Source: Tubulanus polymorphus (Eukaryota > Animalia > Nemertea). From it: a stretch of 64,000 nt of DNA. A program made the position numbers and the translations under genes. Position 1 is the stretch's first letter. Each line of letters begins with the position of its first letter. Positions 1,558-63,900 of the stretch are shown piece after piece. The stretch spans positions 7,254,001 to 7,318,000 of the forward strand of contig NC_134028.1 of the NCBI RefSeq assembly GCF_964204645.1, written 5' to 3'. The notes under the pieces were generated by a model. The model was given only the letters and a program-made list of their open reading frames with translations. It did not search any database and was not told where the DNA came from.

Positions 1558-1886
<329 letters not shown>

Positions 1887-1906
1887 TATACATATATACA
1901 TATATA

Positions 1907-12934: not shown

Positions 12935-13824
12935 CCGAGGAAGGATGGATTTAGACTATAGAAAAGCAGGCTAGTGCCGAGCTTTTCTGAGGGGCAGTTC
13001 AATTTCAAGAAAAATGGCATTTTTCTACGAGAAAAGGGGCACTTTCCTATTGTAAAAGGACTGATCTTAAATACGTAAAATACTGTCAGGGTACCTGAAT
13101 AAAGCATTTGAGAATGGATTATTTTTCATTTTCCAAAAAACATGAAAATTGTTTCCAAATTTCGGAGATTTTAGGTGGTTCGTTAACTTCACCCCCCTTG
13201 GAAAATGGACTTTTATCATGGGCGAACTACAGCTTAGTCGACAACATGGACGGAGCTAATAAGCGAACACCCTAAAGTTCGGTCTTATGCCTTTCGCAAT
13301 GTCGGCCATCTTGACGCAGGTTGTCCGAACTGCGACCGCGCTCAATCCCCTGGTTTACGGACTATAGTTCCAACTACCTGATTTTCGGTATGACTTAGTC
13401 AATAATTGGATTGGGGGAGGTGCGATTATGTAAAACGGCAAAATATCGAAGGAAACTAGTTTCCAAGCGGTTGAATTAGCAGAATGGCGTGAATTTCTAG
13501 AAAACAGGTTTATCGAGACAAGAAACACCACCGTAGATCGGTTCAATCCGTTAATCCTACCATATTACATTCTGGAATTTGAAAATCAAGAGATTAAACG
13601 GGATTGTCTCATTATGCCGGGCACTTTTGGACTTACACCAAGGATCTTTAAATGGACCTTTAATTTTTTGATCGCAGTAAAGACACCACCGTCAGAAGAT
13701 TTCACAAGCTGCTTTGGCCACGATATATAATCGGAATCTTCACTTTGCCCGGCGCGGCGGTCATTTTCTGAGTCACTTGATGTTTAACCGAGCAACAAAA
13801 TTACACAGACTCAACTACCTTCTT

Positions 13825-24100: not shown

Positions 24101-24672
24101 AAATAAATCTTCGAATACTTTCAGACTATGTGGGCATCAATCGAGAGTTCCAGGCGATGGACCCGTCGCGTCATAGAAACGTGTATTCGCGCGTGTACGC
24201 CGAACGAGTGAAACTACTGAACGAAAAATACCACCGATCAGACTCCGCGACGCGAGTCCAGCAGTCGTCGCCGTCGCGCTACCGACAGAAGCGAGCCGCT
24301 CGTTCGACCAAACGCGGCAACAAGCGTTCGATGGACATGAAAATAAGCAACAAAGACGTCTGCGACAAACACGAAATGTACGTCGATTTCGAGAAAATCG
24401 GCTGGTCGGATTGGATTATCTCGCCGACAGGATACAACGCTTTCCATTGCAAAGGGGACTGTCCTTTTCCGTTGGGCCAGACGCAAAAGCCGACGAACCA
24501 CGCGACGGTGCAGAGCATCGTGCACACGCTGAAGATCGGTCAGGGAGTGTCGATGCCGTGTTGCGTGCCGAATAAGCTATTTTCGATTAGTTTACTGTAT
24601 TTCGACGACGACGAGAACGTAATATTGAAACAGTACGACGACATGGTTGCCGCCAGTTGCGGCTGCCATTGA
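21158..24672 (+). CDS. admp: Anti-dorsalizing morphogenetic protein (BMP/TGF-beta family), 455 aa
   Basis: Exons 21158-21494, 22376-22536, 22980-23139, 23558-23719, 24125-24672 (1368 nt, phases compatible). Prodomain PPQYMQELF; furin sites RQKR and RSTKR; mature domain with the ADMP-type CPFPLGQ...PTNHATVQSI...LLYFDDDENVILKQYDDMVAASCGCH. Confidence 0.95.
22692..22756 (+). ncRNA. Hammerhead-like core in Admp intron 2 (related copy at 15582-15660)
   Basis: CTGACGA-T-GATCTCT-GGTG-AGAGTTC-GAAA (22723-22752), preceded by a partial inverted copy. Confidence 0.55.
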
Positions 24673-32200: not shown

Positions 32201-35200
32201 TACGGGAGCGTGAACGGCTTTTTCTTCTTTTTGACCAGGTTCTCTTGACCGTTTTCGGTATATTTCCCGGCGTTTGCCGGCTGCTGCAGGCCCAACAAAT
32301 TCCTGACGCTGTCCTTCAATTTCTCCGACTTCGCCTTGTTACCATCAGTCCACAACTTAGAATCCTTGTTGATCGCTTTCCAGTGGTATTTCGACGATTT
32401 CGACGATTGTTTCTGATTGGTTTGGATGATTCTGTTTTCTTTCGGTTTGCACTTTCTGAACAGCGTGACCAGAACAAGATTCGGCGGGAAGACTATCAGA
32501 GTGGTCATAACGCTGATGAATAACTGATGCAGAGTAAATTTGAACGGGCCAAGAGTTAACGAAGAAACCTGTTGAACCCGCTCTTCGCCCTGAATAAAGA
32601 CAAATCAAAACCTTGATTGGTTCCTTGATATTTTGATAAGAAAATGAACTACGTTTCAATTTTGTTATGCGAGTGTAGGTGGTGGGAGATTTTGGCCTTT
32701 TTTGCAACTGGTTCCGGAAGTGACCCACATCGCTTCGTTTAAGCATTGTTTAGTATCGAGTGAGTTGGGATTTGCGTGTGGACGTGCTCTTCAATTAGGC
32801 CCGGGTCAAATTTGAATCGGGTCTGCTCCGTGCCAATCTTGCCCGGGCTAAATCTTCTCCGTGTGATCGCGGCTTATGTACCAAGTAACTACTATCACGT
32901 TCCGTTATGATCTCTGTACTAATTATTTATGCAAAATATATCAAATCAAATCAAATTTCTCGTTACCTTGAAAAACATACAGTTCGAAATCATAGTCAGA
33001 AATAGTAAGGACATACAACAGCTAACCCTCTGAACTCGGGTGAAACTACTCTTAGTTGGTCGACTTAACACCGAAATCCACAGGTGGTCGTTTGTCAACT
33101 TCTTGCGGACGGACGACGAGAACAGGTGCCCGAAACTGGCGAGGTCGTTGAGTCCGGCTACGGGGATAATTCGTTCGACCATACCGTCGTCCTCTTCGAC
33201 CGCTAACCATCGATCACACAGGAAGAAAAATCTATAAGAAATTCAATCATCTTCTTCTTACCGAATGAGATCGTTTGATTTTCGGGGGTGTTTTCGTAGC
33301 TCATGAAGACTATATCACACAGAATACAAGTCATGTAAATGCCCATTTGTTAATCTACAGTGCCCACCATTCATATATCAAAGAGCCCCTCCCCAGGGAA
33401 ATGTCGATAGGCATTATTCATTCAATTTTCAAGGATTCTGACGGGCCGATACGGGTATGTTTGGGTCTATTGCCTCAAATCATTCGAACATTCATCCATC
33501 AAAGATCGATCATTCGAAACCTCGTAATACGTGTTCAATGCCAGTGTAACAGTCGTTAGTCTTTACCTTTCGCCTGTTTGCAAATCAGTGAATTCGATCT
33601 GATTCAAATACCACGAACGATGCTTTCCTTTGCCGGAGTTGTCGTGCCAGATTCGCAAGAACGTCAGTGGACCGAGCGACTGTTCAGAACTCAGTATGTA
33701 ATTCAGGATACTTCCACGAGCGAAATGCTGCAAATTTGTATATGCAAGAAAACGAATGTTCAAAACATCTAAATATCCAAATGAAAATGGTGAAGTTTAT
33801 AAAACCTATACTACAATGCAACTACATGACAATGACCATTCTGATATGTCCTTTCTAAAATTTCGTCCTCACGCTAGACCTAAGCAAGCGGTTCCATAGT
33901 GTAGTGGTTATCACGTCTGCTTTACACGCAGAAGGTCTCGGGTTCGAAACCCGATGGAACCTATGGCTGCCTTTTTTCTGCTGGCTTCACTGTATGCAGT
34001 CAAGCTAGAGACATTTATGACACATATTTGTCTTTTAAATTCCTTTAAAAACAATTCATTTGTCGCATTAGTGTTTTCATAAAACATTCTCTATCTAATG
34101 ATGATGAATTTCTAATAACGTTCGACAGCTATTAGCGTCAAATTGAATGTAGCTTCGCCGATACCACAGTTAAATTTAGCCCATTTTCAATTACCATTCA
34201 ACTACTCTCCAGAACAAATTTCGAAGCCCGATGGTATGATTTGATTCTCCTTTTAAGAAAATCGTTTAGTGATTTGAACTACAATATATCATGAAAATAT
34301 AGAAGTCAATCACCTTTCTCTTGCCATCAGCTAGTTTTCTTACACCAGTGTCTCCGTCGTCTCCTGATAGTATGAAACTGATTTTTGAAGATGTGCCCGA
34401 TTGTTTTCGGACTCCCGTATTCACCGTAATTTGGTAATAGTACCTATCTGTCGGTAGGTTATCTTCCAATGGTATCGCTCCCCACTTGTAAAAGAGAAAC
34501 GCAAAAATGACACAATATTCGTGAAAATGTGGTAAGCTGATATGATATATTTTCAATATGCCCAACTCTACGAAGTAATAGTATTTTTGTCCCTTATACT
34601 GGTCAGAAGAGTTTGGTATCTGCCCAAAAGTCTAGCGTACAGGCCTGTTCGTATTTTGGTAAGAGGTGTCCTTTTATTTGCGATATAAGAGGAGCAGATA
34701 GCTGAAGGACAGAGAGGAATGGAGGAAGTAAGTTTCAAGATGTCCTGTGGTGCCCAACCGGTCAACACGACTACGGGCTAGGTGAAGGGGAGCAGGTGCC
34801 TCGTACACGGGATAGTAATTAACAACGCAAATGTTTACGACCAGCGCGACGATATAACTTTCTTAGTAATTTCTTAGATTCATACCTTGATCAGATCACG
34901 TTTATCTTTATATCTGCACCAGATCAGTGCGATCAGATAGAGACCCAGAATTGAGATTACTGTTCCGAAGACCGCCGCGTTCTCGTTGAGATCTTTGAAC
35001 TTAGACCAAACCGTATTGAAGTCTATCGTGTTCGGCGGGACCACGCAATCTCCCCCAAACGGAGTCAGATGTGCAGATATGCACTCCATTTTTGTAGCCG
35101 TCGTTCGGTTGCCGAGCTATTGCATCAAAAGCAAAAGAAAAGACATGAAAACTAGTAACAATCACTGCGCAACTGGAATGAGGTGATGAAGGATGCATCG

Positions 35201-38200: not shown

Positions 38201-41200
38201 CATTGATTTGCACAAAACGGACACCGGTCTAATCAAATTCCCATCCTCGATGGCAAGCGTTTCCAAAAACCCAGCAACAGTGAGTTCCGGGAACTCATTT
38301 TGACATGGAATGTCGGAATCGAAGCCTTCGATAATTTCCCGTCTTTCTAATGGCCCAGTAGGATTTTCTGTGATGTAACAGAAAACTCTAGAATAGTATT
38401 GGTTTTGGATGTAGATGGGTTTTGAAATTCTGTTTCAACCTAAACAGTTAGTAACATTACCTGATCGGGACAAATTGTGCCTTCAAACATCGGTGGATCC
38501 TTTTCGTTTACGATCTTTTCCTTGTTTTTGTTTTTCAGCTGCTGGTTTTTCAGACCGCGTTCCTGCGCCAACGCGAGAGCATTTTTACTCGGAAGGATGT
38601 TACTAATCGCCGAAACTGTATCTAATACCGTAATAGATAAACGCAGAACTCAGAACTGTTGAATCAAGTACTGGTTATTTACTTCGGGACCATTTTTGAA
38701 TATGCAATTCTTACTTGAGGCGACGTTAGTCACTTCTTTCAACGGCACTGTGTCCATCACGTCGTTTTTACCCAGGATGCCTTTGATCGCATTTGCTGCG
38801 ACTTCCTGAAAAATGTTTCATAGAATCAGCCTCGTTACTTTCAACACGTATCTGTCGGATAAGATTTAAATAAAACATGATGAGAAGCTTCATGATTCAT
38901 TCTGTTTCTTCTGAAACGCTTTATCAATTTTAATATTTGAGAATTGTCTTCAAAGCGACGAATTCTGCGGCGGACAGTCAACGTCTATGATTAGTTGCTC
39001 AGAGCTACCTTCGATTGACGCGACCAGCATAAAGAGTTCGCTGGTCAGAGTCTCTTAAAGAATATGAAATGCCATAGCTCATGATGAAGGCGCGAAGCCT
39101 ATAGCGGGTTTTGGGGGACACAAGAAAATATTCTGAGCAATTGAGTGATTTTGAATCAAAATTACCATGTAATAATGTTATCTTGGCCAAAAGTAGAGGC
39201 CCCGGGCCCCTCTGAATTTGTCTCCAGGGGTTTAACATTGAGAAACATTTCGTATATTATCATCTTTGCTCGCACGTACCTTGTCTTCATCTCTAACCTG
39301 GTCAGGTTTAGCCGTTACCACAGAAACCGCCGAGGCTGTAGCGCCAACCTGAGGTAACGTGTTCACCATATCGACGCACCTGCCTAAACCTTGTATCATC
39401 TTTGATCTCACCTACGTAAAAGAATACCCACCATATCATCATTATTCAGTAGCTTAGCTTCTAAACTCCAGTCGGATGGCAGGGTGCCATCGTTTCGAAA
39501 ACGTTTCTTAACTTGTATTCAAATAGCTTCACCTCATTCCAATGATTCGGGCCACGTCCATATTTTTATTCATCATCCTCAACTATTTGTTTTTACACGG
39601 GCTGAGAGATATGTCAATTGATTTGTGTACTAAGAATATGACAGTGACCATATGGTTTATAATTCAATGGCCTCTGAACTGATTACCAAAGTAGTTGTTT
39701 TTGAGAGGAAACCACAAGACGTTGTTGTTATTTCATAGAAACTGAAGGTAGAATTATCTATAAGACTACTATCATTGCTTACATTTTTTTTCTTTTGTAG
39801 ACTTTCTTCGGACTCTTCTTCCTGGTAAAATTGATAAAGGAAATACAATATAGGTTAATGGTTCAGCATTTCGGCCAGAAAAATATTCGAATAACCTACC
39901 CCATCGTCTGAATTCAGTTGCTCTGCAACTTTACCGACGATCGTCAAGCAGGATTTCACATCGCCTCTATTCAACAAATCGTCTAGATTATCCACGTCAG
40001 AAAGCGATATTTCACCGGACCAAACCATCAGCGAAACGTCACCCATCGACTGACGGACATCTTTTCGAACCACCAGACGAAACACATACGGTTCTTCCAT
40101 CGGTACCAAATCCGCGGCCGAGAATTGAAGTATTTTCTCCGGACCGAAAAATCTCACATCGCTCTCGAATACGTTCGACTTGTCCCAAACGGTCAGGCTA
40201 TCGTTTTCGTGAACTTTCGCGGCGCCAGATTTCAATCCGTCGAGGTCTAGATTCGCGAAGGTTCCGAGTTCGCTTTCCTTGAAACAAAACATATCGAAAA
40301 CGGCTGAATCGATACGAGGTGGAAGAATATCCGGGTCGCCGGAATCGGTAAAATCGAGGCTGACTGTTTCGGTCCTTTTCACGTCGATTCTCTCAGAACC
40401 GTCATCGACTTTGAATACGGCTCGCAAAGTCGACGCTTTAATTGAAACGTCCAGGGACTCCGTAGAGAATTGCAGAGGACACGACGAACAAGAAGCCGTT
40501 ACTTGAACTGTGTAGAAACCGTACTGAAAAGCGTTCGGGGGAATAATCAACATCGGATCCGTATTACCATTTCCAACGCAGACTTCCGGTACCTGACGCT
40601 CGAAAATGGTGGCGTTTTCGATGATTAGTTTTTCGCTGGCTCTGAGTGCGTAGGTCACTCCGCCGAACGCGCCACATTCTATATCACTAGACGCCGAAAT
40701 CGCTAATTCAGCGGCGCGTTGGTTCTGTACGCTTCTCACCGATTCAACGGATCCGTTGAAAGCGACAGTTACGAGCGGTTTCGGACAGTCCGAGTCCTCA
40801 GCGGATACGACCACAAGTTGCGGACACATAAACGATGCCTTTTCGCCAAATACGTTACTAGCAGTTACCCGGACATCGAAATTACTTTCAGATTCATATT
40901 CATGAACAATCTCTATATGACCGGGCATTGCTAGATTGTGGATGATGATTTTTGTGTTGTTGAATGTAAAGATTTGGGGATTTTGATTTGAAACGTCGCG
41001 ACGTTTGCGCTTCGCTATATTAGAAATTGTGTTAGTTGCGGATGTCGTTGTAGAGGCTGCATTGATCGTAGTTGATGACGAGGAAGGTGCCGTATTTGTA
41101 GTAGAGGTCGTTATGGATTGCCGAGTCGTTTTAGATGTGCCGTTCGACAGGTCGTCGGAATTAGAGGCGTTAGCGGTATCTGGTGTAACTGTCGATGATG

Positions 41201-44200
41201 TGGTTGGTTTCTGCGTAGTGGTAACTTCGCGGTTTACTCGTATAACCATCGGAGAGTCGTTCGAATCGTTCGATGGCACCGAAACCACTGTTCCATCTCC
41301 TAGTTCAATTCTGTAAGAAACCTGCGAACCAGACGGACATCGTATCGCGAACTTCGTCTCTGAATTAACCATAACTCGAGCTTTATCGGGAATAATGTCC
41401 ACGAAAGATATGTTTTGTCCGACCTGAGTGACGATTTCTGTCTCAACCGATGATATGTTATTTGTTACGTTGATCTGTATTTGATAAATGCCGTAAGCCG
41501 AGTATGTATGTTCAAATGTTACGACGGGACTTTCTTTTATGTCAAAGTTAATAGCCTTATGGCTACCATCTCCAGGTCTGATATCCAGAGTAACGCGGTC
41601 CACCTTCGATGAATCTTGACCGGGGTTGACAATAAGGGTCATAACAACCAGTTGCTCGGGACTTGTCACATTCTCTACCGATAGTTTGACCGACACGATT
41701 TTTCTCTCCACCGATATGGAGCCGATCTCCGTCGCATGACTAATCGCATTGCTGATCACCACGGATACCGGGTAGTGGCCTACGTTTTGGTACAAGTGCC
41801 TCATTCGGGTCGGTACGTCGCCTGCTGGCTCTCTGTGGTAACCGTAGAAACCACTCCGGTCCATGAAGTCGATTTTTACGAAGGCGTGATCGCCGCTACG
41901 GGTCGTCCAATCGATGTTGTAATATTCGGAAGGATTCCCGAAGGTCCGTCGACCAGAAATGACCGAGCAATTAACTTGATTTTGGTTCGTGACCGTCCAC
42001 GCGGTGATCCAGTATCCGTCTTGCGATACAAGGACATCATGGGATTTAGCAGCGACGAACGCGGTTGCAGGTATCGTTATCGCGTCCTGTTTGGCGATCC
42101 TCGATGCGGTTTTGTCTCCCGAGACGAAAACCTCCAAGTCAAACCAACCGCGATCCGCTCCAATCAGCGGAATGGTGAAATCATCGCCGATTCGTTTGTC
42201 AATGTGGTGTGTAACGTTGTCCTGGACGCGTACTTTGATTGTTTCGTTTTTCACGCCGAAATCGTTCGAGCAGTTCAACGAAGTCTCGTAGAAGCCCGGC
42301 CGGTTGAACGTGTGTATCAGATCTTGTTGCAGAACTTGTTCGTTTTCGGCCGCGTTGAGAACCTTCCGTTGACCATCGCCGAAACTGATCTCGCATACCG
42401 CCCGTTTCCTGCTGAACACGTTCACCCGATAATCGATAGTTTTAGTTTTGGCCGCCGATGGCGCTGACGTAACGTGCAGCATTTCAGGCGCAGCGCCTTC
42501 GTCGCGGTTGACCACTTCGATGTTCTTCGAAACGCTTTTACTTACGTTCCAGTACGACCAGTGCGCCTTCACGGTAACCGTAAAGACGCCCGCAGATTTC
42601 CAATCGTAGGATACCCGATTGTCGCTGATAATCTTCTCACCGCCATTGTCACCAAAATCGACGATGAAATAGGCGCCATCTCGCGGGTGTGACGTTACGT
42701 TCAGAACAACTTGCTCATTCGGCCTGATGTAACGCTTCGCTTTCAAGGCGATATCCAATGTGAAATTGACGCTTGTCTCAACATCTTCGACGACGTAATG
42801 CGAGACTACCACGACCATATATGGCCCCGATAATTGCGAACACGAAAGATCTAAATCCTCGGTGTTGATATCGCCGAAACTCTGCTGACAAAAACAGCTG
42901 TCTTGTTTGTAGATGGCAACTTGTTTCCTCAGTTTCAGGCAAATCGTTCGACATCGAAGCTTCGATGCGGACCCGGAAGCGGCGACATCCGCATTACCCG
43001 GGTTTTCGATACATCCTATGCGCAACAAATTGCTCGTATCTGAAAACAAGACCCATACATTTCTATTTCGTTATGGAAACAACTGAAGATTCGAAAATGT
43101 CTTTATCGAATTACACCATGATTAGTTAATGAGTGAAATGGCCGTGGTTATAAGAACATGAATGCTTCGTTATGCGTAATTCATACCTGCATTCCGCATT
43201 TTAGAATATTTCTTTTATTTCTTTATTCATTTATCATTTCAGTTTAATAATAAGTCCGTGGATAGGAATTAAGAAATCACTTGAAGCCTTTAAAATAACT
43301 TAACACTTTTTCAATAAATGCAACGAGAAGAATAGTACTTTATCTAGTTTATAACACACGCGATTTCGCTACTTATACACCTGTAGCGAAAGCTCGTACG
43401 TCTAATGAACTATTCAGTTAATCTATAGAGTACTATTCGACTCAATTCTTGATACTTTTTCGTAATTAAAAAGAAATGAATGTCACACATGACTATTGAG
43501 TGGGTGCTTAACGGCCATATTATTTTCGATTACCTATAAGAGCAGCTACTTGTTCGGCTGTGCGATGGGAATCATTATGTTCTAGATTATACATGGTGAA
43601 GTTCGGCGTTTCGATATGTGGTACATTACTGCTCGGGCGCCCGACTGTTATGGCAGGAAACGGATCGAGTTGTTTTCCTGCCCCGACCTGCGGAAATTCT
43701 CGGCTAGACATCCGAGTTCGATCGACGTGAAATCCATCAATGAATAGCGAAAAAGATTCAGTCGAAATCCAGGTTAGTGTTATTTGCGTCCAACTGCATC
43801 GGTATGAAACGAAAAGAAGTATAAAGTGTTGCATTGATTCGTCATTGATTCAGTGCAGCAATAAATAAGACGTAGACTTCAGAAATCGATAGAAATTGAT
43901 ATGTTTGAGAACTAAATTGGCTCATTATTTAACCCTCAAACACATCGTTAAGTGGCAAGCAGTCATCTCAATGAATTCTAAGTCTGGTTCCATACGAAAG
44001 CCATCCTTCACTACTCAGATTGCACTATTTGATTGAGTGGGGATCGCGGAGAAATTGGCTCAACTTCCATAGAAGTCGTTAGCCAGTTTCCAAAAATGGT
44101 TTTCTCGCGCGAGAAATCGGAAGCTTGTTTCTGATGCGAGAAATAAAAACACTTTTACAGAAACATTTCTATGGCCTGAATCAGCCACCATACTTGGTAG

Positions 44201-45008: not shown

Positions 45009-46069
45009 CGTTGTAGTTGCTACATAACGGCTTAATTTCAAACCTAGACCTGGGTCTATACCTCACTGGACCGAAGAGGCTGATAGCTAAGTGTAAATAA
45101 GATCAGGGGGTTTACAAACGTAATACATATATAATGTTAATGCAATTAAGGGCATGAAAAGATGGCACGCGATCCTTGCTCTCTTAACCGTGCGCACCTG
45201 GGAATACTTTTATTATTAGTACAACCTGTGATTACGGTTAACTAATCAATAATTCAATCCGCTCTTCTTGTTTCGTCTGCGCTCCAGTGAAGCTGATGTC
45301 GTCACACTGGGTTATACTATCAAATTATTCATCGGCCAATCCCCTTAGAAGCTATCGCGTCATTAATTGAATTTTTAACGCTTGGCGTTCGGCGGCGATG
45401 TTGAATTGATGGGCGTTTTTTTTCGCTACGCGGATTCCGTTCGCCGTGTATGAAATCGTCGTCGAAATAAGAGAATCGAGCGTGAATCATTTCGATTTCA
45501 ACAACAACTGCGTAATCCTGCACGACTTAGTGAAACTCAGAACGAAAAATGTAAAAATAATTCCCTAACATGTCTGTTGATAAAAAGCATAATCCATGCA
45601 TACCGTGTTTCGTATTATTTGCAGAGCGTATTTATAAAAAGAATTTCTTCTAGATGAAACCCCATCTTTAGTTCTAGAGACTTCAAGATGTGGATCAGAT
45701 TTCTTGGATACTAATCTCAACGGGCCTCTGCTAGGACAGTGCCACGCAATGATCATATATGATAAGATAATGATAATCACCTTTGCCAATTACTTTTATT
45801 TTTCGATCAATCCAACAACTGAAATCAAATCTGCGATTATTGCCCTTATGCGATTATTGGCCTTTTACTTTTCGACCGTCTTGGATGATCCAAAATGTTT
45901 TTAGCTATATAGATCTTGATTGATTTAAAACAGGGATCATTTGTTAACAAGCAAAGAATTCAATTTAATACGATATATAATATAAGTATAATCATGCAAA
46001 TTACGTTAGAAAACGAATGCGCATGACTTCCGCCTATTGCAAACAGGTAGCGTGGCCGAGCGGTCTAAG

Positions 46070-47998
46070 GAAGTAATAAAAGCGATCTCACTACTTAAGA
46101 ATAAAAAGGCATCTGGCATCGACGGGATAACAAATGAATTGCTAAAAGTCAACCGATATCCCTATTTAGTTAATATTTTGCAAAACCTATTCAATCTTGT
46201 TCTAAGGACTGGCCATGTACCGGATACTTGGTCGATTGGGGTGATCAAACCGATCTACAAGAACAAAGGTGATCCCGACGATCCCGATAATTACAGAGGC
46301 ATCACTCTAGTGAGCTGCCTAGGAAAACTGTTTACGAGCATATTGAATCAGAGACTATCTCTATTTTTAGATGCAAACAATATTATAAGTGAAGCCCAGG
46401 GTGGTTTCAGATCTAAATACTCGACAGTTGATCATATCTACACTCTTAAAACCATTGTTGAACTGTACCTTGGCCAGGGGAGAAGACTGTTCTGTGCGTT
46501 CGTAGATTTTAAAAAGGCATTTGATTCAATCTGTAGAGTAACTCTTTGGAAGAAACTTATTAGTAATTGTATTACAGGAAACTTCCTGAACATTATTAAA
46601 AGCATGTACGACTCTGTAAAATCGTGCGTAAAATATAATGGCAATACCTCACAATATTTCACTGCCGGCAGAGGTTTGAGACAGGGCGAAAATCTATCAC
46701 CAATCCTATTTTCACTCTATTTAAATGATATAGAGGCATTTTTCGTGGGTAATGGTAATCCAACTCTCTCATTTATAGAAAAGCTGAATTCGGACTGCGA
46801 TCATGATCTTGACACCCTGTTAAATCTATTTATTATTCTGTATGCAGATGACACAGTTATCTTAGCTGAGGATGAAAATTCACTGCAGTCGCAGCTGGAT
46901 ACTTTGTATGCATATTGTTTAGAAAACGATTTAACGGTTAATATCGATAAAACTAAAGTTTTAATTTTTGCAAGAAGTAAATGTAGGATCAAGATAGATA
47001 CAAAGTTTATGTTTGGCACAGATGAGATTGAGATCGTTGAGGACTATCTATACCTGGGAGTTAAGTTCAATTGGAATGGCAGCTTCGCCAAAGCAAAAAA
47101 ATATCTATATGACAAGGCAATGAGAGCAATGTTCTCGGTAATACAAAAAGGCAGACGCTTGAAGCTCCCGATAGATGTTTTGCTGAAACTATTCGATATG
47201 TGCGTCGCACCCGTTGCGTTATATGGTTGTGAGATATGGGGCTTTGAAAGCCTCGATTTATTAGAGAGTCTGCACTGTACGTTTTGCAAAATTATTATGA
47301 AAGTGTCAAAATATTCGCACAACCTGCAGGTATTAGCTGAACTTGGGCGGTACCCCATGAGTATCGAGGTAAAACGGAGGATGGTAAACTTTTGGCTTAA
47401 AACTGTTACCGGCAAAGATTCAAAACTTAATGCAATCCTGTACCGTATATCCCTCAATCTGTATGTACGCGAAAAACACAAGTCCCCTTGGTTATTGTAT
47501 ATAAAGAAAATATTTGACGACATTGGCTTATCTTACATATGGTTACAGCAATACACGGAAAATTATAAAACGCTCTCCAAGTACGTGAAACAAGTCCTCC
47601 GTGACCAACACGTACAAGAAATGCTTCAAAAAGTGAATGACGATCAGCAGTATGTTAATTTCAAACTATATAAGAACGATGTTAGGCTTGAAAAATATAT
47701 AACTCAACTTGACGGAAGTCTTGTGCATAGCTTATTCGAATTCAGAATTGGTTCCTATTTATTACCGGTAAATAATCGATCGAACGCTCATATAGACCGA
47801 AGTGAAAGACTGTGCCCTGCCTGTAACACCGTAGGAGATGAGCTTCACTTCATTTATGACTGCACTTTGCTAAGTGATCTGCGTGATAATTCCATCCATT
47901 TAAGTATGTCCAGAAACTTGGAAATATTAAGGAATCCTACCCCACAACTAGCTAAATTTATCCGGTTAGGTTTAAGTTTATACAAATCCCTCCAGTGA
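46070..47998 (+). CDS. Reverse transcriptase ORF remnant (~640 aa, uninterrupted, N-terminally truncated)
   Basis: ORF track 46037-47998; the first 11 codons are flank and tRNA sequence, not element sequence. Confidence 0.85.
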   Translation, partial: EVIKAISLLKNKKASGIDGITNELLKVNRYPYLVNILQNLFNLVLRTGHVPDTWSIGVIKPIYKNKGDPDDPDNYRGITLVSCLGKLFTSILNQRLSLFLDANNIISEAQGGFRSKYSTVDHIYTLKTIVELYLGQGRRLFCAFVDFKKAFDSICRVTLWKKLISNCITGNFLNIIKSMYDSVKSCVKYNGNTSQYFTAGRGLRQGENLSPILFSLYLNDIEAFFVGNGNPTLSFIEKLNSDCDHDLDTLLNLFIILYADDTVILAEDENSLQSQLDTLYAYCLENDLTVNIDKTKVLIFARSKCRIKIDTKFMFGTDEIEIVEDYLYLGVKFNWNGSFAKAKKYLYDKAMRAMFSVIQKGRRLKLPIDVLLKLFDMCVAPVALYGCEIWGFESLDLLESLHCTFCKIIMKVSKYSHNLQVLAELGRYPMSIEVKRRMVNFWLKTVTGKDSKLNAILYRISLNLYVREKHKSPWLLYIKKIFDDIGLSYIWLQQYTENYKTLSKYVKQVLRDQHVQEMLQKVNDDQQYVNFKLYKNDVRLEKYITQLDGSLVHSLFEFRIGSYLLPVNNRSNAHIDRSERLCPACNTVGDELHFIYDCTLLSDLRDNSIHLSMSRNLEILRNPTPQLAKFIRLGLSLYKSLQ

Positions 47999-48245
47999 AT
48001 TGTGTATATACGTGTGATATATCTTGCTGTATATAATTCAATCTCTGTACTTGCTTTGTTTGTAAATAGTTTTATTACTGAAAGTTTGATTTTAAATTTT
48101 GTTAATTCCTATTTTGTTTTGTATATATGTATATAATTCTGTTCATGTTTTGTAAATTTTTATATTCCATATTTTGTATTCAATCTTGCCTCCACGTACC
48201 ATTCTTATGGTTGGAGTGAAATAAATATCTTATCTTATCTTATCT
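46071..48245 (+). mobile_element. 5'-truncated non-LTR retrotransposon (RTE/RTEX-like)
   Basis: RT motifs NYRGITL, QGGFR, FVDFKKAFDS, GLRQGENLSPILF, YADD and YLG; C-terminal CPAC..DELHFIYDC; no endonuclease domain; AATAAA at 48220 and a (TATCT)4 tail at 48226-48245. Confidence 0.93.
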
Positions 48246-49672
48246 AGGCGCCGGTTTAAGGCACCGGTCCAGCAATGGGCGTGGGTTCGAATCCCACCGC
48301 TGCCAGAACTTTTGTCAAAAAACTAGATTTTGTCAAAAAAACTAGACTTATATCAAGAGAATCTTATGCACCTATTTTATTACTTTTACATACATGCTGT
48401 AAAGTATAGGCATGGTAACGACATATCCTATTAACAATACATGTATAACGGATAGTCCTACGTAGCAAGTCGAAAAGCCGTTAGTAGTCGAAAAATCATA
48501 TTTCAGAAATAATTCCCATAGTTTTCAAAGATTCAAGGATTTCGATTATTCGTTCCTACTAAAACTGATTAATTTGCAAGAGTTTGTTAAAATACACCGA
48601 GTTTCAAATAACTATTAGAGTCGCATTCTAATGAATTACAATCTGGGCTGATTAGTTTTGTTTTTAAATTACAGAAATAGCTCAAAACGCTTGTTTCGGG
48701 CCGCGTCTACTGTCTAATTAAAATCGCTTCAAATTCTAAATACTGACAATATCTGAATTTTTGAATCTCAATCGGCGTAAAGTTTTCGTATTACGAAGTC
48801 TAGTTTTTCTAGTTTCACTGTTGGAAAAAGCATCAAATCAAATTCTCTTCTTTGATAACGAAACGCTTTGATGACGCGCAAAATTAATGTTCAGAAGATT
48901 CCAACGCAAAATAAAATCAATGAAATTGGATGGCGAATAGTGCGGAAGCGACGCGCGCTTGAACTAGATTTCAGTCACCGAAAAAAACTTTAAATTCAAG
49001 GATCGTGATAATGTAGGTAATTTTGTATGCGACGTAGATTTCAAAAGACTTTAAAAAAGAACTCGCAACGTCGAAGCAACACATACCATGTACCGGGGGC
49101 TAAGTATTCAATCAATTAAGTGCATTGCCTTCAACGCGCGTCTAGTCTTGCGGTTAATTCCAGTACTGCTACGCCGTGATGGCGACGAATCGTTTCGAAC
49201 GACAATCGTTACCACTAGAAGCTCGCGCAAAAACGATTAAAGCGATTTATGGCTATAATTAAGTTGTATCTTTAAACGAAGATTTATTCAGCAGTCTCTC
49301 ATGCCGGGTAATGTTAGCGGTAATGTTTGCTTTGCGACAGGTCGCGCGGTGCGGCCCAATTGTTATTTTCACGATTTTACGCCCAAAACAAATACATTAA
49401 CTTTTAATAAGCTTGCAATTTATTCCGCAATGATTTTTTTTTAAACTTGGAAGGAAATCAAGTAGAATTTCTGACTGCGAGCCAAGATCAAGAAAGTGCG
49501 AGCTATTGATAGACCTGATCGACTTGAATGATCCAAATGTTATGAAGCTATATACATATTTCGATCTTACTTAGGGATTCTCCCTCTTACTATGAACAAA
49601 TAAATTGAATAGGATACTATAGTAACAAATGATACAAGTATAATCATCGAAATTATATAGACAACAAATATT

Positions 49673-49843: not shown

Positions 49844-49925
49844 GGTAGCGTGGCCGAGCGGTCTAAGGCGCCGGTTTAAGGCACCGGTCCAGCAATGGGC
49901 GTGGGTTCGAATCCCACCGCTGCCA
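49844..49925 (+). tRNA. tRNA-Leu-AAG: tRNA-Leu (anticodon AAG), intact
   Basis: 82 nt with a long variable arm; anticodon stem CCGGT/ACCGG with loop TTAAGGC; GGTTCGAATCCC; followed by GAACTTTT. Confidence 0.96.
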
Positions 49926-50352
49926 GAACTTTTGTCAACGTTGCCGTGCTTCATGTGCATTGTACCTTCTTAATTTGACTTACTTTTTTCCAATTGAACG
50001 TATATGGATGTATACAAAGGAGTATTGAAAATATAATCATTACGGAACGGCAGTCCATTGATATCTGTTTTTGGGACAGCTCCGTTACAAGTTTGTATAC
50101 AATGATAACTATACTATGCTTTATTTTTGGGGTACTGTCTGAGTCGATGAGCACAACGTACGTCATCTATTTTGGCATTTCAAAAGAACCATTACAGTTG
50201 TGACTTTTGGCGTCCTTTTTTATCAAACATATACCATGACTCTTTTTTTCTATCTAATTAATGTAAATGTCTTTTTAGTAATGAATTTGGGCTGGTGTGC
50301 CTTTCGTCATCAATATCGGGGTTAGACCAGTTGCCGGTCAATTCAATTCAAT

Positions 50353-52110
50353 AAACCATTTTACAGTTGCTAGCCGCCATTTTGTTAGGGTACTTTTGTC
50401 CCGTATTGTTGGGTCATTTTTTTCGTTTTTTTAAAAACTATCCGTGATGTGTATTGTATCATATTTCATCTGCCCATGGATGGATTTTGACAACTTCAGC
50501 AACATTCAAACCGCATAAATCTCTAGTTTTCAGTTATGTAAAAATCATTTCTCAAATTTACAACAATGCGACATGAGAGCGATATAAAAATCGGTGGTCA
50601 GTTTTTGCCGTGCGCATAGAAATCCAGGGTACTGAAATTTGAAGTTCGTTATTTTCAGAAATAATTTTCTAAAAAATCCAAACATTTCAAGCACTGTGCG
50701 CATAAACGTCCCCTTTCAGGTGAACTTTGAAATTTTAAGATATCTTGCCTAGTTTTTTTCGTATGACACTTTAACTGCAGCGCGTGTATTGTCATTCCGA
50801 GATTCGGCGCTGTTTTCTTTGCGTGTATTTCAGTATATGGGTGTTATTTCTTCATTTTCACTACACTTGTCTCTACGGAAAATGGTTTTAATTGTTGGTA
50901 CGAGTATCAGGTTTAAATATTACGGCATTAATACTGTATTCCGTTCTCCGGCGCTAGTTCGTAATGGCTGTAATGGTAGCCGCTTTTACGGCAGGCAGAG
51001 GCTTACGTACATGCACCCAAGAAAACCCAAAATATCACTCTTTTGTTGTAAATGCAATCCACACACTTCTTGCGTTTTTGTGATGGTAGATGTCACTTTT
51101 TACTTTTTATCACGTGCGTCTGACATTCGAACTTGATACTTGATATTTCACCACCAAAACAAGAAAGTTTTCCTATATTTTCTTCCCAATCTAATCAATC
51201 TTGTGTGTACTTAATACAAAGTATTCATAGAAAGTAGCTGAATATTTGCCCCACCCCATTTGTCCAGCTTTTTGACCACTTCTCCATCCATCTAATTTCA
51301 GTAGATTTTTATGTAAATTTATTGATAGACTACTGATTTAAATGGTCATCATACTCGATTTTGAGTGATATATTTCTTTTCTTCTTCCATCTCAATATAG
51401 GCCCATATATTCTCTTCCCGCGCGCAACTTCGAATGCGTGATCAAAATGCCGCTCAGTCTCGCTGCTAAAACTGGTCAGAAAAATCCCTTAAACCCCAAC
51501 ATCTCTAATGTCTTCGACCTATTATATTGCATAAACGACGTGATATTTAAACCTGATACTCGTACCAACAATTAAAACCATTTTCCGTAGAGACAAGTGT
51601 AGTGAAAATGAAGAAATAACACCCATATACTGAAATACACGCAAAGAAAACAGCGCCGAATCTCGGAATGACAATACACGCGCTGCAGTTAAAGTGTCAT
51701 ACGAAAAAAACTAGGCAAGATATCTTAAAATTTCAAAGTTCACCTGAAAGGGGGCGTTTATGCGCACAGTGCTTGAAATGTTTGGATTTTTTAGAAAATT
51801 ATTTCTGAAAATAACGAACTTCAAATTTCAGTACCCTGGATTTCTATGCGCACGGCAAAAACTGACCACCGATTTTTATATCGCTCTCATGTCGCATTGT
51901 TGTAAATTTGAGAAATGATTTTTACATAACTGAAAACTAGAGATTTATGCGGTTTGAATGTTGCTGAAACTGTCAAAATCCATCCATGGGCAGATGAAAT
52001 ATGATACAATACACATCACGGAGGGTTTTTAAAAAAGAGAAAAAAATGACCCAACAATACGGGGCAAAAGTACCCTAACAAAATGGCGGCTAGCAACTGT
52101 AAAATGGTTT
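50353..52110. mobile_element. 1758 bp non-autonomous DNA element with ~570 bp TIRs
   Basis: 50353-~50924 is a near-perfect reverse complement of ~51539-52110; termini AAACC...GGTTT; AT on both sides; no transposase ORF. Confidence 0.93.
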
Positions 52111-55100
52111 ATTGTCGATATGTTCTAATTCAAAATGAATTCATTGTTCCTTGATATCATATCATATTATGCATTGTCGATAATATGAAGCAATATCTAT
52201 GTGTTATTTTTCTTCAAGGTGTCAATAAACCAATAAGTTAGTTTTCCTGGTCAACCTAAGCTCGTACATGCCCTTAGAAGGCCTAGACACGTCCGAATAA
52301 AACGTGGTTAACGCAAACTGATGAATAATCATATCTCGACGATACTATATGCGCAGAGTTTTAGACATTAAGTGCTGTTCGTCGTACCAGGTCGGGATAC
52401 CCGTTATATTACGAGTCGATTTCTTATATCCTGACTTTTGACAGGCGGTAACAAAGATAAATAGTCGCTAGGAGTTTCAGTCACGGTTCCGCAATTATGA
52501 TCGTTCAATTTTCGGAGTGAGCCAAAGCAAAATTGATTCTCGCGGGATTTCGCAGTTATCGACGTTTATTTCGCGCGCTTTGATTTTTGTGTATCTGTAG
52601 CGAATGAATTATGTATTGACTAGGAATCTCTCGGCGGAGGCGCGCTCGCGAACGGGGAACGCGATATAGACGTTGACTCGTTAACGACGTGAATATAAAT
52701 CGACTTGTCTGGATTGAACGCGATTTGAAACAAACGTTGATGAAAATTCGATCGAGGAGGACTAAGCAGTTGTGCGTGTTTGCTCTGACCCTTGACTCAA
52801 AACTAATACTAATGATAATTATGATAATAATAGTAACAATAATAATAATAATAGATGTACTTGATTGTCGAAGAATTTTTTTTTTCATTTATGATAAAGG
52901 TGATAATTCATAAGCATTTGAATATTAGAAATAATAAACAATATTCACAAGAGGGAAATTGAAACTATAAATTGACTGAGACTCACGCTATTTCTACCTT
53001 CAGAAGAAACAAGTGGCGATCATTCAAATTGCCAGGATTTTTTCGGAAAACGAACAGTTTTATGAATATTTGGGTTTGTTTTCAAAACATTTTGTGGGTT
53101 GCCGTTGCGTCTCGTTCGTTCGTCTCTATTTCGCTAGAACCAACAATCTAACCAACAATTCAAAGTTGGAACCAGCCCTTGGAATTTTTTAACTTTTCAA
53201 ATCAGTCTAATTAGTCATAAGGAATTTGCTTATGAAAAGACGAACGGATGAAATATTTCAAAAACTCGCTCGTTTTTACATTTTTGCCATTCGTTAAGTT
53301 CGGTCGCTTAAAAGTGTATCAACGAATGTCGCGATGTTAGAATACCTATCCCTTCAATCTGTGTAATTTTCATGATCGTTGTGAAATAAAAGTAGGCCAG
53401 CATGAAATGTAATTGAGAAGGTGCGACTGCCTCCAGGCAGGATTCAACATGTACTACTCGGATATACAAATCAAACTGTCACATAAACTGCTTTGATGGC
53501 ACACGTAATTGAACCGCTCTAATTTCAACGGATACAGCTGATAACCAAGAGGCAACTCTCCAAATAGGAAAATTTCCAGCGCGTACATATTGTAGCCCTT
53601 CTTGGGGTTAAATGAATTGTGTAATAATGGGATTGTGGACGAACTTGACTACTTTTCCACTGTATTCATATTTATATGATAGAAGGGAATCATATCTGGA
53701 CAGGAGATTTTATACGAAACCCAACTAAATACGAATTTTCAATGCAACTTTTGACGCCGTAGAAACCGTCGTAATAATGTTTGTATACATTGATACCTAG
53801 CATGCGTTATTCGAGTTCTGAGTGAGTCAGTGCGGACTACGTCATCAATACTGGTGTTTCAAAATAACATCTAAAGATGTGGTGAATTTCATTTTTGATA
53901 GATTGTAATATCTATTTTTGAGAGGATGTGCACTACCATATCAATATATCGCGGCTAGACCGGTTGCCGGTCAATTCAATTCAATTATCGATATACTCAA
54001 ACTGCATCGATTCTTAGTATTATACAATTCATGTTATACGATTTATTGTCGACAATATTAAAAAATTAGAGTTTTCTTGTTATGTAATGTAGCACTTGAA
54101 TTGTCGTTTAAAGTATATTCGCTTACTGTAGCAGGTGCGTCCTTGCAGTTGAAGGTTGAATCACTCACTGACAGCTCTTCTGACTCTATGCGCAGTTTGA
54201 TTGACATTTCTCGAGAATCAGGCTAATTAGATTCTTAACATTCTCCCATCGTCGCGGCAAAGTCATCGGCTGTTCATCATTCTCTTATCTGTCTTCTCGC
54301 AAAACAACCACAAAGCAATAAATTCCAACTCGATCAAATCTGATTTTGAAATCATTCATTGAAAACAAACTTCCCCTTATCTATTGATGACTATGAGGTA
54401 AGAATCGTCAATTATTGCTTAGCAATCTTGACACTCCTAATTGATCGATCTTTTTTAAACGACGAAACTATAGATGAAATCACGAAGCACAAAATCTTTG
54501 ATTAATAACTTTTATTATTCATCTAAATTCAATGTTCTTATTGAAAAAAAATAATATCGATTGGTGAGTTCAACCGGCTTCCGCCCGGACTTAAACCTAT
54601 AACCACGCTCAAATATCTGTATTTGCATTTATCCCGAATGTATTCGCACGTAATTCGAGTTGGATTGCTTAATGTTCCGTACAGATCGATCTCGTACGTA
54701 ATCGCTTGTGAAAAGATTAAAGGATCAGCGTTGATCCTAATTTATTGCCACAACTTAATCCAGTCGCGGCAACTTCTACATTTCAGTGTTTATCCTGTAG
54801 ATACGTGTTTTTTTGTTCCGATTTACCTCGAGAATCAGAGACATCGAACTCACAATTGTGTGGTATACCTTGTATTTCCACACGTTGTCCTTTTTCTCTG
54901 AAATAACTCTAAAGTATAATCATCAGGATCCAGTTCCACAGTTGTGAGTTTTAGTTAACTCTGAGTTCAACGAGTTAACTCAGAGTCAAATCTTAACTCA
55001 GAACTCTGGAACTGGGTCAAGATGATTTTTCATTTAGGAACAATATTTTTAGAATTTTAAAGCTCGGTTTGATCATATCTATCGGATACACGATCATTTT

Positions 55101-60426: not shown

Positions 60427-60940
60427 AGGGATTCGAAGCTGATAGCATCCAGGGCGAACTTCGATTATCAATGTTAGTCGAACTAAACGAAACCGAATGT
60501 CAGTTAGTCGGAACTATGATCCGGAAATGGTCGACCACGCGATTGAGCACGGTCACTGTAGTTCGGGGGCCCAGTTCCAAGATGGCCGACACTGTGGAAT
60601 ACGTGACCGAACTAACTAGTCGACTAACTGCGAAAACCGAAGTCCGCCCTGATTACGAAACCCTGCCACACTAGACCGAGCGCAGTTTAGACGATGTAAC
60701 TACTAGCCAATAAGATATCCCATTTTATTTTAGCCCGGGTTTTCCCATTTATAGTACGTTCGTGAAATTTGCCTCAGCAATTATACGACGAACAATCTGA
60801 TTGGAGCCGCAAGTTTTCGCGCGGTGAACCTGCGCATGTACCTGCGCACCGGGTCTAGTGTGGCAGGGTTTCGTGCAGCCAATGTGGCAGGGTTTCTTAC
60901 TGTGCCTGAGTGGTAGCGATGCTATCAGGTCCGAATCCCT
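60427..60940. mobile_element. MITE with a second MITE (60450-60651) nested in its left TIR
   Basis: Outer termini AGGGATTCGAAGCTGATAGCATC / GATGCTATCAGGTCCGAATCCCT; inner element CAGGGCG...CGCCCTG. Confidence 0.75.
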
Positions 60941-63900
60941 GCCGAGAGAGGTTAGTTTCAACGGATATTTGCGTCAACAAAATCGAAACTCCAAAGTCCT
61001 TACCCAAAGAATTGACACAGTAGTTATACGATATCTCTTTAAAAAGTTACCAAAGTTTGCAATTATGACGCGCGAAGATTATGACGCTCGAAGATTCCCA
61101 AGAGTATTTGGCCGGGAAGTCATTTAGGAAATAAGCCCTGAAATCCTGCTGGTTGGCCGTTCTTAAAGCAAATAGAATACGATACTGTGGCTTTTAAACG
61201 AGACGGCAGTGTAAACATTTTAGTCAATGTCGCCTCCCTGTAACGTTTAATGATAATAAATTACTGTTTTCCTGGTCGGTTTCTACCAATCTGAGGTTTT
61301 GTACGACCTGCAGCCATTACGGCGTGTCCGGATACAAAATTGGAAACGGGAATGAATGCGCCGACATCACGTGATTAACCGCCACAACTCTGCAGGCACC
61401 ATGCAGGGACTGGTTTTACAGTTTTGTATTTACCTAAAATCAGCGTTTACCTCAATTGAAAACGAATTAAGTCGACCCTTTATAAGATAATACCAGTCTA
61501 CCCGCCGATAAAACAACTATATCTGTACTTCGATTTCCGATTTCAAAATCAAATCCCCTGTTTCGCTCGCGGCAGGCGTGGTGGGTTTGTAAGGGACACC
61601 AAATCATTAAAGTCAAACGAAATTTACCAATCAAGATAACGGGGTCAATCCCTATTTTAAGAAAAAAATATGACATAATACCACCAGTCGATACATCTGG
61701 GCCCAGGAGAATAGCTTAACTGTTCGCAGGTCCTTCCTCTTTCGAACTACTTGCTATTCGTAGAGTGGTGTATTCGAACGTTTATATAAAAATTTAGAAG
61801 AAATTCGTTCTCATTCAGAGTCCTGGTAAAAAAAAATCGTTCACAGTTTGATTTATTTCAAGACCAGATTTAGCGATGTGGTCGTGTCTGAAAGTAGTCT
61901 ATGAATAAAAGCCATGAGGTGATGAGTTTCGTTTGACTATCGCTCCGGTGCGATCTACAACAAAGGGGAGATTTCACAAAAATGACATCTTCTGTTGGGG
62001 AAAAAGTACAAACTAGATTTTCTAACCGCGGTCTTGACTCCGAAGCTGCGAGTTCACTTCAGTTATCATTAGGCTCAAGAACTTTTACTCGGTATATCTC
62101 CTCGGGCGGGCACAGGAAAACCCTGTTAGCCTAGCCGTACGAAACTGTGGTTAATGTGCTGGTTAGTCTAACAACAGTTAGCACTACCAGAGTTTTCCTG
62201 CGCACACCCCTGGTGCTTTAATGGTTAATCACTACGAACGGTCTTGTTAGGATCGCCTGTGTTCTAAACTCGATTCTTATTCATACCTTTATCCAAAATA
62301 AGCTATTTGTTGTATTTCTGGTGCGGACAAATTGGTTTGTTTCAAGGACGAGACCTATACTCCTGGCTACGCCTTTAGAAAAAAATACTAAGAATTATTC
62401 TCAATCGGTATAGTAATGTCATGAACATATCTGACCACCAATTTGGTTTAAACAGGACCACTTTACCGAGCTCTTCACCGAAGTATTAGATACAACATGT
62501 TGGAAGGTAGTGTACGGCCTCAGTTCGCTTCTCTGATGCAACAAAAGCATTTGATCAAGTTAATCATACCACCCTATTTTCTAAAATGATCCGTAAAGAT
62601 TAATATCCTCTTTGCATTGTACAACTTTTGACTTTTGGTACAATACTCATGATCTTAGGATAGAGTGGAACACATACTTACCGTCGATTTCTTTTAATAC
62701 AAGCAATGGAGTTCGGCAGGGTGGCTGTGGTAGTTTCTGTCTTATTCATTCAATGTCTATTTAATGACTTATTTTGAACGAACGAACGAACGAACCATCC
62801 ATAATGTAGTTCACTTAAGTTCGCAAAAGTAGCATCGCTGAATAGATCCCCAGGCGTCATTTGGAGAGTTCATGCACTTCAAGACGCGAGTAAAAAGGTG
62901 TTTCTTAGAAGCTGAAATATTCTAAATTATCTCGAGGAAAAAAGAAAGCTAGCAATAAACCGACAAATGAACTTCGACGTATTATCAGAGTAACCAATGG
63001 CAACATTGGGATCTTGTGATTATCAACATCTCGCAGGAGATGCACCTGCAATTAGCATCTTAAATAAGTTGTAATTGGCGAAGAGTCAAATACAAAAGAA
63101 AGCTATTCTGGAGAGACCTTTTGGGACGTTGATCTTAGTAGAATTAAATACACAGCACTCACAGATGAGAGCCTTCACTGAGTCGTAGACAATTACATTC
63201 TTTCCTTGATGACAGATCTCATAAGAAATTGTGAAACCTTAGTGCAGCATTATGGAAAACAGCCATGCTGTTCATTGAAATGGAGGTCATCTGACTTGAC
63301 AGTCTTTACGAGTTCAATTGCTCTGGAGATTTACTCACTCGACTGTAAAACCCCTACTAAGTGTCTTTTAATGCCAACGATATGAATTTTCATGGTACTT
63401 TGCTGTCAACTTGCATGTACGTACGTCTGAATCAACAAATTGATGATAATATACCAGTGCAAAGCAAATACAGCAAGCAAAGCGTTGTAATTTTCTAACC
63501 GTATTAGTAACAGCCCGAAGATATTTCATCAGCACAATGAAGTCATAGAAGCGTTGTGTGTTTACCCGCAGAACGTTGTTCGAATTATTCACACAGCCAC
63601 CTTCCAGCCAACCTCCGTAGTCGATTCTATACGTATTCACTCACGGAGATAGCTTTCAAGTGCCGGCTGAAAAACCTGACAAAATTCTCAATTCAGTTTC
63701 ACCACGCATCGGAATGGTTGATTCCGAGATAACAATTACTTGGTAGGTTTGTTGTTCGGAAATTTCAAAGATTCTCAATGGACACATTGCCAAAATCTGG
63801 TTCAAAACTGTCTGTGGACCAGGTTAACAGCTGTGCGTTATTTTTTACACGCATCTTTGTCAGTTTGATATATGAGAGGTTTATGTGCTTGCGGACCCAA

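What the first reader, a model, noticed from the sequence alone, without database searches (positions are those of the whole stretch)
46046..48305. Young RTE/RTEX-type LINE inserted precisely inside a tRNA-Leu(AAG) gene: possible tRNA-targeting family
Seen: a 2175 bp element splits the tRNA at the 3' side of the D arm, with a 3 bp duplication (AGG). Its (TATCT)4 tail shares TCT/TCTA microhomology with the target GGTCTAAGG. The RT frame has no stops, and both tRNA halves match the intact copy at 49844 exactly, so the insertion is recent. Known: tRNA-associated specificity is described for other non-LTR groups (Tx1-clade families such as Dewa, Dictyostelium TRE), whereas RTE-like elements usually insert without sequence specificity. 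Inference: this is either a site-specific family using multicopy tRNA-Leu as a safe harbour, or a chance hit guided by the tail. One locus cannot distinguish these.
Basis: partly seen in the sequence, partly recalled or inferred. Interest (0 to 1): 0.85.

Follow-up and report, generated by a model that had tools for sequence, protein, structure and literature searches.

The report
Stray LINE copy splits leucine tRNA
A young, front-truncated copy of a jumping gene (an RTEX-type LINE) sits inside a leucine tRNA gene, but reads from the same species show the family's other copies ending in many unrelated places, so this is likely a one-off accident rather than a tRNA-seeking family.

Summary
It is the 3' part of an RTEX-type LINE: open RT-to-zinc-knuckle frame, 3' hairpin, AATAAA, (TATCT)4 tail. 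No assembly was held, so flanks were read from public runs of the same species label. In raw reads, depth is 279 at the element's 3' end; 144 reads at the four best-supported tail positions run on into non-tRNA sequence, and at most 9 reads could continue into tRNA-Leu(AAG) (at most 6%; published criterion for specificity is 20%). The three nearest relatives from other species also end in non-tRNA DNA. One sample appears to carry the empty allele. A weak preference for tRNA genes is not excluded (a human-likeness filter may hide tRNA reads, and only some flanks were shown). The scan has noted LINE-split tRNA genes in other genomes (L1/Tx1 types), not this family.

The parts
46046..46070 (+). 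tRNA-Leu(AAG) 5' part, nt 1-25 (acceptor 5' strand, box A, D arm), ending in the left AGG copy
   Evidence: identical to 49844-49868
46068..46070 (+). left copy of the 3-nt target duplication AGG; G46070 also fits the element's own upstream base
   Evidence: loose ends before 46070
46071..47998 (+). 5'-truncated ORF2 of an RTEX-type LINE: end of linker, RT (YADD at 46841), C-terminal CxxC..H..C knuckle-like motif from 47813; endonuclease and ORF1 missing
   Evidence: full-length relatives have an N-terminal Exo_endo_phos domain; 39 reads extend the element upstream
47999..48219 (+). AT-rich 3' UTR
   Evidence: sequence
48190..48216 (+). predicted two-tier hairpin (5 bp, 3-nt bulge, 5 bp) before the AATAAA; likely ORF2p recognition signal
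   Evidence: fold z -2.44; kept in 4 hand-picked relatives, 2 of 10 pairs with compensatory change
48220..48225 (+). AATAAA
48226..48245 (+). (TATCT)4 microsatellite tail
48246..48305 (+). tRNA-Leu(AAG) 3' part, nt 23-82 (starts with right AGG copy; anticodon arm, variable arm, box B), followed by a T4 run at 48310
   Evidence: identical to 49866-49925, with 13 further shared trailer bases
49844..49925 (+). intact tRNA-Leu(AAG) gene 1.5 kb downstream; supplies the same tRNA
   Evidence: ARAGORN, Rfam RF00005 56.1 bits

Best explanation
The insert is a recent, 5'-truncated copy of an RTEX-type LINE whose family's 3' ends lie at many unrelated sites, and it likely landed in this tRNA-Leu gene by ordinary, non-specific target-primed reverse transcription. 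Shown: the anatomy, the multi-copy family, the heterogeneous flanks. Inferred from established LINE biology: ORF2p of a full-length copy elsewhere bound its RNA (probably by the 3' hairpin and tail), nicked DNA in the D-stem region, copied 2.2 kb, stopped early and joined at a 1-nt microhomology, leaving a 2-3-nt duplication. Box A and box B of the tRNA's internal promoter are now 2.2 kb apart and neither half is rebuilt into a whole tRNA, so the gene is predicted dead; the loss is likely tolerated because identical genes remain (one 1.5 kb away). The copy lacks endonuclease, ORF1 and promoter and is predicted unable to move by itself. It likely still segregates as a presence/absence polymorphism.
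For: (raw WGS run X5, about 12% of the run read): depth 279 at 48211-48217, 18 at 48246-48252; 0.83 of 347 laid reads run on unlike the stretch; loose ends behind the tail at 48235, 48236, 48244, 48245 hold 29+23+38+54 = 144 reads with consensus agreement 0.48-0.81 and none resembles tRNA-Leu; at the anticodon base 48258 only 9 of 19 reads carry the AAG letter, so at most 9/(9+144) = 6% of these 3' ends could enter tRNA-Leu(AAG), below the 20% criterion in PMC4494074 (passage). Contigs of X1, X2, X3 show further, different non-tRNA flanks. Depth ratios give about 12 copies over the RT (range 5-25) and about 46 at the 3' end (19-98). Nearest relatives L001 (77% RT-core identity, FastTree support 1.0 with the window), L002 and L003 end in non-tRNA DNA; of 118 related loci ARAGORN and BLAST with the tRNA halves hit 1 (L060, a SINE-head-like fragment at the 5' side, opposite strand); a tail-plus-tRNA-Leu pattern found 0 matches in metagenome contigs. 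Youth: open frame; 4 differences in 1685 bases from the main X1 contig. Polymorphism: an X2 contig runs 45752-46099 across the 5' junction, whereas the X1 contig on a different haplotype (6 differences in 571 bases) stops at 46070 with one unmatched letter beyond.
Against: For one family of this size a hit in any tRNA gene is uncommon by pure chance: 0.07-6% over my assumed ranges (genome 130-660 Mb from depth, 300-1000 tRNA genes assumed, 20-100 copies), about 1e-4 for some ten Leu genes; only post-hoc selection over many families and windows makes it ordinary. Read laying drops human-like reads without notice, and tRNA-Leu is close to the human gene (recalled), so tRNA-entering reads may be under-counted. 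Only 24 of 155 and 18 of 62 loose-end rows were displayed, and raw-read rows are mixed consensuses, so other tRNA or small-RNA flanks could be among the unseen. The empty allele rests on one terminal base of one contig; no read joint skipping the element was listed, at flank depth about 3. Relatives at 57-77% RT-core identity need not share a target.
Confidence: 0.82

Rival explanations
1. The family inserts mostly at scattered sites but has a weak preference for Pol III genes or for the tRNA D-arm (open chromatin, TFIIIC/TFIIIB contact, or a favoured short nick motif), so tRNA hits recur at a few percent.
For: Low per-family chance of a tRNA hit; up to 6% of 3' ends could be tRNA-Leu(AAG) junctions; most flank rows were not displayed. 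An unchecked scan note describes such a mixed habit for another LINE (e1-10280805), a lead only.
Against: No displayed flank other than this locus is a tRNA or other recognisable small-RNA gene (by eye); box-B motif in 1 of 54 relatives' downstream regions, and that one (L084) is near the end of the coding region, not at a tail.
Confidence: 0.12
2. A strictly tRNA-Leu-specific RTEX family or youngest subfamily uses multicopy tRNA-Leu as a safe harbour.
For: Clean insertion in a multicopy gene; the human filter could hide junction reads.
Against: 144 reads and several contigs with non-tRNA flanks against at most 9 candidate reads. In X3 the contig identical to this copy's 3' end (0 differences, depth 145, like the RT body) stops at 48236, where a non-tRNA flank is listed. 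tRNA reads are not all filtered (depth 30 at 48274-48301). The pooled tRNA-Leu depth suggests only about ten genes, a small harbour. PMC4640811 (passage) places most target-specific families in early-branched, Tx1 and R1 groups, not RTE.
Confidence: 0.04
3. The junction is an assembly chimera or a template-switch tRNA/LINE retrocopy rather than an insertion into a resident gene.
For: No listed contig bridges either junction by 31 or more letters on both sides (the X2 contig passes the 5' junction by 29); no listed piece bridges the 3' junction.
Against: Both tRNA halves are collinear, with a duplication between them and unique single-copy flanks outside; the X2 contig ends exactly where a junction-bearing 31-mer unitig would; a chimeric retrocopy would put tRNA only at the 5' side.
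Confidence: 0.02

Closest known systems
RTEX (RTE-X) clade LINEs, e.g. Repbase RTEX-10_CGi and the bivalve RTE-X families of Martelossi et al. (PMC10294476)
   Same: By eye, same RT motifs and the same ~20-residue insertion between the RQGENLSP motif region and YADD as RTEX-10_CGi (supplement passage); 5 of 5 looked-up families bearing RQGENLSP are classed RTE-X, the 1 control without it RTE-BovB; APE-type endonuclease in full-length relatives; AATAAA plus microsatellite tail (26 of 80 relatives by my pattern).
   Different: A family not found under a name here (best named hits 41-44% identity); this copy is 5'-truncated and sits in a tRNA gene. No tree with named references was built.
RTE-clade insertion behaviour (Nishiyama and Ohshima 2018, PMC6007223, passages)
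   Same: [quoted passage not shown]
   Different: That paper gives RTE duplications of 7-15 bp; here 2-3 bp (7 bp only if one base was lost). It does not mention RTEX.
tRNA-targeting elements: NeSL-1_TV (tRNA-Pro), LIN15_SM (tRNA-Arg), LIN25_SM (tRNA-Glu) (PMC4640811, passage); Dada-tL_DR DNA transposon in tRNA-Leu (PMC8869645, passage); Tx1-clade Dewa and Dictyostelium TRE (recalled, not read)
   Same: A mobile element inside a tRNA gene.
   Different: Those are restriction-like-endonuclease LINEs, Tx1/L1 LINEs or DNA transposons whose copies recur at the target; this is an RTEX whose copies are dispersed.

Membership tests
RTEX clade LINE | RT groups with RTEX references in a phylogeny | tested here: inconclusive
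   Named references could not be brought into a tree. Motif-level match to RTEX-10_CGi and unlike Proto2 or RTE-BovB rows by eye; tree holds only unnamed or uninformatively named relatives.
RTEX clade LINE | ORF2 with APE endonuclease and RT | tested here: met
   RT in this copy; Exo_endo_phos in 4 of 4 full-length relatives scanned, above the curated cutoff in 1 (P0136), weak in 3. The endonuclease is absent from this truncated copy.
RTEX clade LINE | Substantial ORF1 (sometimes an esterase), unlike RTE (PMC3905857 passage) | tested here: inconclusive
   This copy lacks it; relative L002 has an open frame extending about 130 codons upstream of the endonuclease start, not scanned for domains.
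RTE-group LINE | 3' end in a short tandem repeat, variable 5' truncation | tested here: met
   (TATCT)4 tail; depth rising toward the 3' end and many 5' loose ends.
Target-specific non-LTR retrotransposon (tRNA-Leu) | More than 20% of flanks are the target repeat (criterion in PMC4494074) | tested here: not met
   At most 9 of 153 counted reads (6%) in X5; caveat of the human-likeness filter and undisplayed rows.
Target-specific non-LTR retrotransposon (tRNA-Leu) | Same target in related families | tested here: not met
   0 of 118 related loci carry a tRNA-Leu 3' half after the tail; only 54 have 400 bases or more downstream of the RT end; 0 pattern matches.
Target-specific non-LTR retrotransposon (tRNA-Leu) | Endonuclease cleaves the target specifically | not testable with these tools
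   Needs a biochemical assay.

The most novel reading that the evidence does not exclude
This RTEX family has a real but minor homing preference for Pol III genes or the tRNA D-arm, which would be the first target preference of this kind in the RTE group found in my searches and an early stage in the evolution of site specificity.
Probability: 0.1. Interest if true: 0.6.

Novelty: new member of a known kind. Interest (0 to 1): 0.2.

Why it matters
As it stands it is a recent, probably polymorphic knockout of one redundant tRNA gene by an active RTEX family: a usable population marker and an example of why one clean junction in a multicopy gene does not show targeting. Had it been targeting, it would have extended tRNA specificity to the RTE group, for which five literature searches found no such report; Repbase and most subscription papers were not searchable.

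Tried and rejected
No whole genome is held, so the proposed genome BLAST could not be run. No second copy of the element in the 64-kb window (self-BLAST and tblastn). The search for related loci with the single protein in genome contigs: 0 of 45 candidates confirmed; with the alignment in viral contigs: 0 of 95. Rfam on 20 of the 118 loci: 0 matches. PDB search gave only L1 and R2 proteins at E about 1e-15, no use for the clade. No RNA holder listed among sequencing runs, so expression was not addressed. L060's ARAGORN tRNA-Leu(CAA) call was inspected and rejected as a split gene: it is a rearranged fragment with repeated box-B pieces on the opposite strand beside the 5' truncation. L084's box B was rejected likewise. 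The two recurrent read flanks (before 47727, behind 48236) are not in the window. A motif search of PMC10294476's supplements found 0 hits but skipped 20 of 33 files, including the curated family libraries, so whether this family's 3' end is in that library is open. A 7-nt duplication with one lost base was considered; it fits no better than the 3-nt reading and cannot be told from one junction. The in-frame run of the ORF through the tRNA 5' half has no ATG and was taken as coincidence. Look-ups of earlier findings by place and by sequence returned nothing. In the tree I kept the window, the selected proteins, the 22 closest and 10 most distant loci out of 101 candidate rows.
Full report
Observation. 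The sequence is as described. Positions 46046-46070 equal nt 1-25, and 48246-48305 equal the last 60 nt, of the intact tRNA-Leu(AAG) at 49844-49925, without mismatch; three bases (AGG) are present on both sides, and the 2175 bases between (46071-48245) end in AATAAA and (TATCT)4. AGG is the 3' strand of the D stem, so box A stays left and box B right. The frame 46070-47998 is open for 642 codons, matches Pfam RVT_1 (E 5.5e-31) and ends with a CxxC..H..C motif. The window holds no second copy. The window is animal DNA: it carries TGF-beta and polycystin/PKD coding exons.

What the element is. A protein search gave 1195 relatives at E 1e-30 or better among 7990 scored; apart from the window's own protein the best are 50-65% identical and unnamed, and the named ones (Mytilus, Mizuhopecten) are 41-44%. 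Four full-length relatives of 1166-1226 residues carry an Exo_endo_phos match ahead of the RT (above cutoff in 1, weak in 3), so this copy lacks roughly the first 550 residues. In the alignment supplement of PMC10294476 the reference RTEX-10_CGi shows, by eye, the same motifs and the same insertion before YADD, and Proto2 and RTE-BovB rows do not; 5 of 5 families with the RQGENLSP motif that I looked up are classed RTE-X in its Table S7, the 1 control RTE-BovB. This is a motif-level assignment to RTEX, not a tree with named references. In my own RT tree the window groups with L001/P0002 (support 1.0) inside an 11-member clade (0.95).

Is the family tRNA-specific? No assembly is held, so I used public runs: 4 contig sets of one study hold 58-82% of the region's words, and one raw WGS run of another study bears the same species label. 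In the raw run X5, flank depth averages 6.1 (2.9-14.8), the RT body 71 and the 3' end 279, i.e. about 12 (5-25) and 46 (19-98) copies. Depth falls to 18 at 48246-48252. A fall alone could be caused by the tool's human-likeness filter, but the loose ends are positive evidence: 144 reads at four tail positions continue into sequence unlike the tRNA, with mixed consensus (agreement 0.48-0.81), and contigs of X1, X2 and X3 show other distinct flanks. At the first anticodon base 10 of 19 reads are the TAG isoacceptor, whose contigs have intact tRNA upstream; the other 9 include intact AAG genes, so at most 9 of 153 (6%) could be junction reads. PMC4494074 (methods passage) calls a family target-specific above 20%. 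In X3 the contig identical to this copy's 3' end stops at 48236 where a non-tRNA flank is listed, which argues against a hidden young specific subfamily. Limits: 24 of 155 and 18 of 62 loose-end rows were displayed, about 12% of X5 was read, and the filter's loss is unknown.

Relatives elsewhere. ARAGORN and BLAST with the tRNA halves hit 1 of 118, L060, a SINE-head-like fragment on the opposite strand at the 5' side. 80 reach the end of the protein, 54 have 400 or more downstream bases, and 1 of those 54 has a box-B motif, not at a tail. 26 of 80 show AATAAA plus a microsatellite tail, none followed by tRNA-Leu (by eye). The three nearest (L001, L002, L003) end in non-tRNA DNA. A tail-plus-tRNA-Leu pattern had 0 matches in metagenome contigs. 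Target choice can change between families, so this shows only that the trait is not shared across the lineage.

Age and polymorphism. The copy differs from the main X1 contig at 4 of 1685 bases. An X2 contig crosses the 5' junction (45752-46099, 29 letters beyond, below the tool's 31-letter bridging rule but where a junction unitig must end). The X1 contig, on a haplotype with 6 differences in 571 bases, stops at 46070 with one further unmatched letter, as an empty allele would. This is suggestive, from one base; the X2 sample may be the assembly's source.

Mechanism. Inferred from established LINE biology: target-primed reverse transcription by ORF2p of a full-length copy, early termination, joining at a 1-nt microhomology (39 reads place the element's continuation before 46070) and a 2-3-nt duplication. 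PMC6007223 (passages) proposes that RTE microsatellite tails influence nick choice or priming, with one or two bases of microhomology in animals, and gives 7-15-bp duplications. Here the TCT match lies one base outside a 3-nt duplication and is common by chance (26% of positions for any tail phase, 4.9% for TCT), so tail guidance is possible but not shown. A two-tier hairpin precedes AATAAA (z -2.44) and is kept in four relatives that I picked for similarity, with compensatory change at 2 of 10 pairs; it likely serves ORF2p recognition.

Against my reading. The per-family chance of hitting any tRNA gene is 0.07-6% under assumed gene numbers and about 1e-4 for Leu genes alone. The locus was, however, chosen after the fact from all families and windows. 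A weak preference for Pol III genes stays open (0.12).

Comparison with what is known. PMC4640811 (passages) places most target-specific LINEs in the early-branched, Tx1 and R1 groups and lists tRNA-Pro, -Arg and -Glu targets among NeSL-related families; PMC8869645 (passages) lists the DNA transposon Dada-tL_DR in tRNA-Leu. Dewa and TRE are recalled, not read. PMC3905857, PMC7245038 and PMC5753468 were seen as passages, PMC3706591 as a search listing. Searches found no tRNA-targeting RTE or RTEX family; Repbase could not be searched and the curated libraries in PMC10294476's supplements were not searched.

Verdict. Interest 0.2.

Noticed in passing
window 47727 (reads and contigs of X5, X1, X2): Several genomic copies of this LINE's last 520 bases share one foreign upstream sequence (32 reads, agreement 0.95; depth steps up here). 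Either a non-autonomous derivative with its own head or one insertion amplified inside another repeat. The upstream sequence is not in the window.
   Followed up: partly
window 48190-48216; L001:1997-2037, L002:4568-4607, L003:2245-2285, L051:2340-2379: Two-tier 3' hairpin before AATAAA kept across RTEX relatives while the tail unit changes (TATCT, ATTCA, TCATTG, ACTTGAA and others).
   Followed up: partly
window 50349-52114: 584-bp inverted repeats at 98% identity around a 598-bp middle: a young foldback or MITE-like element; no clear target duplication at the BLAST ends.
   Followed up: partly
window 6209-6400, 12672-12945, 60475-60946: Dispersed repeat family with a box-B motif (6365, 12921), probably a tRNA-derived SINE; it does not share this LINE's 3' end.
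   Followed up: no
window 24085-24672 (+), 26265-27086 (-), 39855-43070 (-), 33890-33962 (+): TGF-beta/BMP-like last exon, exons of a polycystin/PKD1-like gene, and a tRNA-Val(TAC) gene.
   Followed up: no
window 1561-1906: (AT)172 microsatellite.
   Followed up: no
L081-L115 (genome contigs): Animal RTEX-type LINEs lie on short contigs of bacterial symbiont genome bins (for example the Sedimenticola sp. records): host DNA in those bins, a likely source of false 'bacterial RT' calls.
   Followed up: no
L060:5-98: A 5'-truncated relative begins directly beside a rearranged tRNA-Leu(CAA)-like fragment on the opposite strand.
   Followed up: yes
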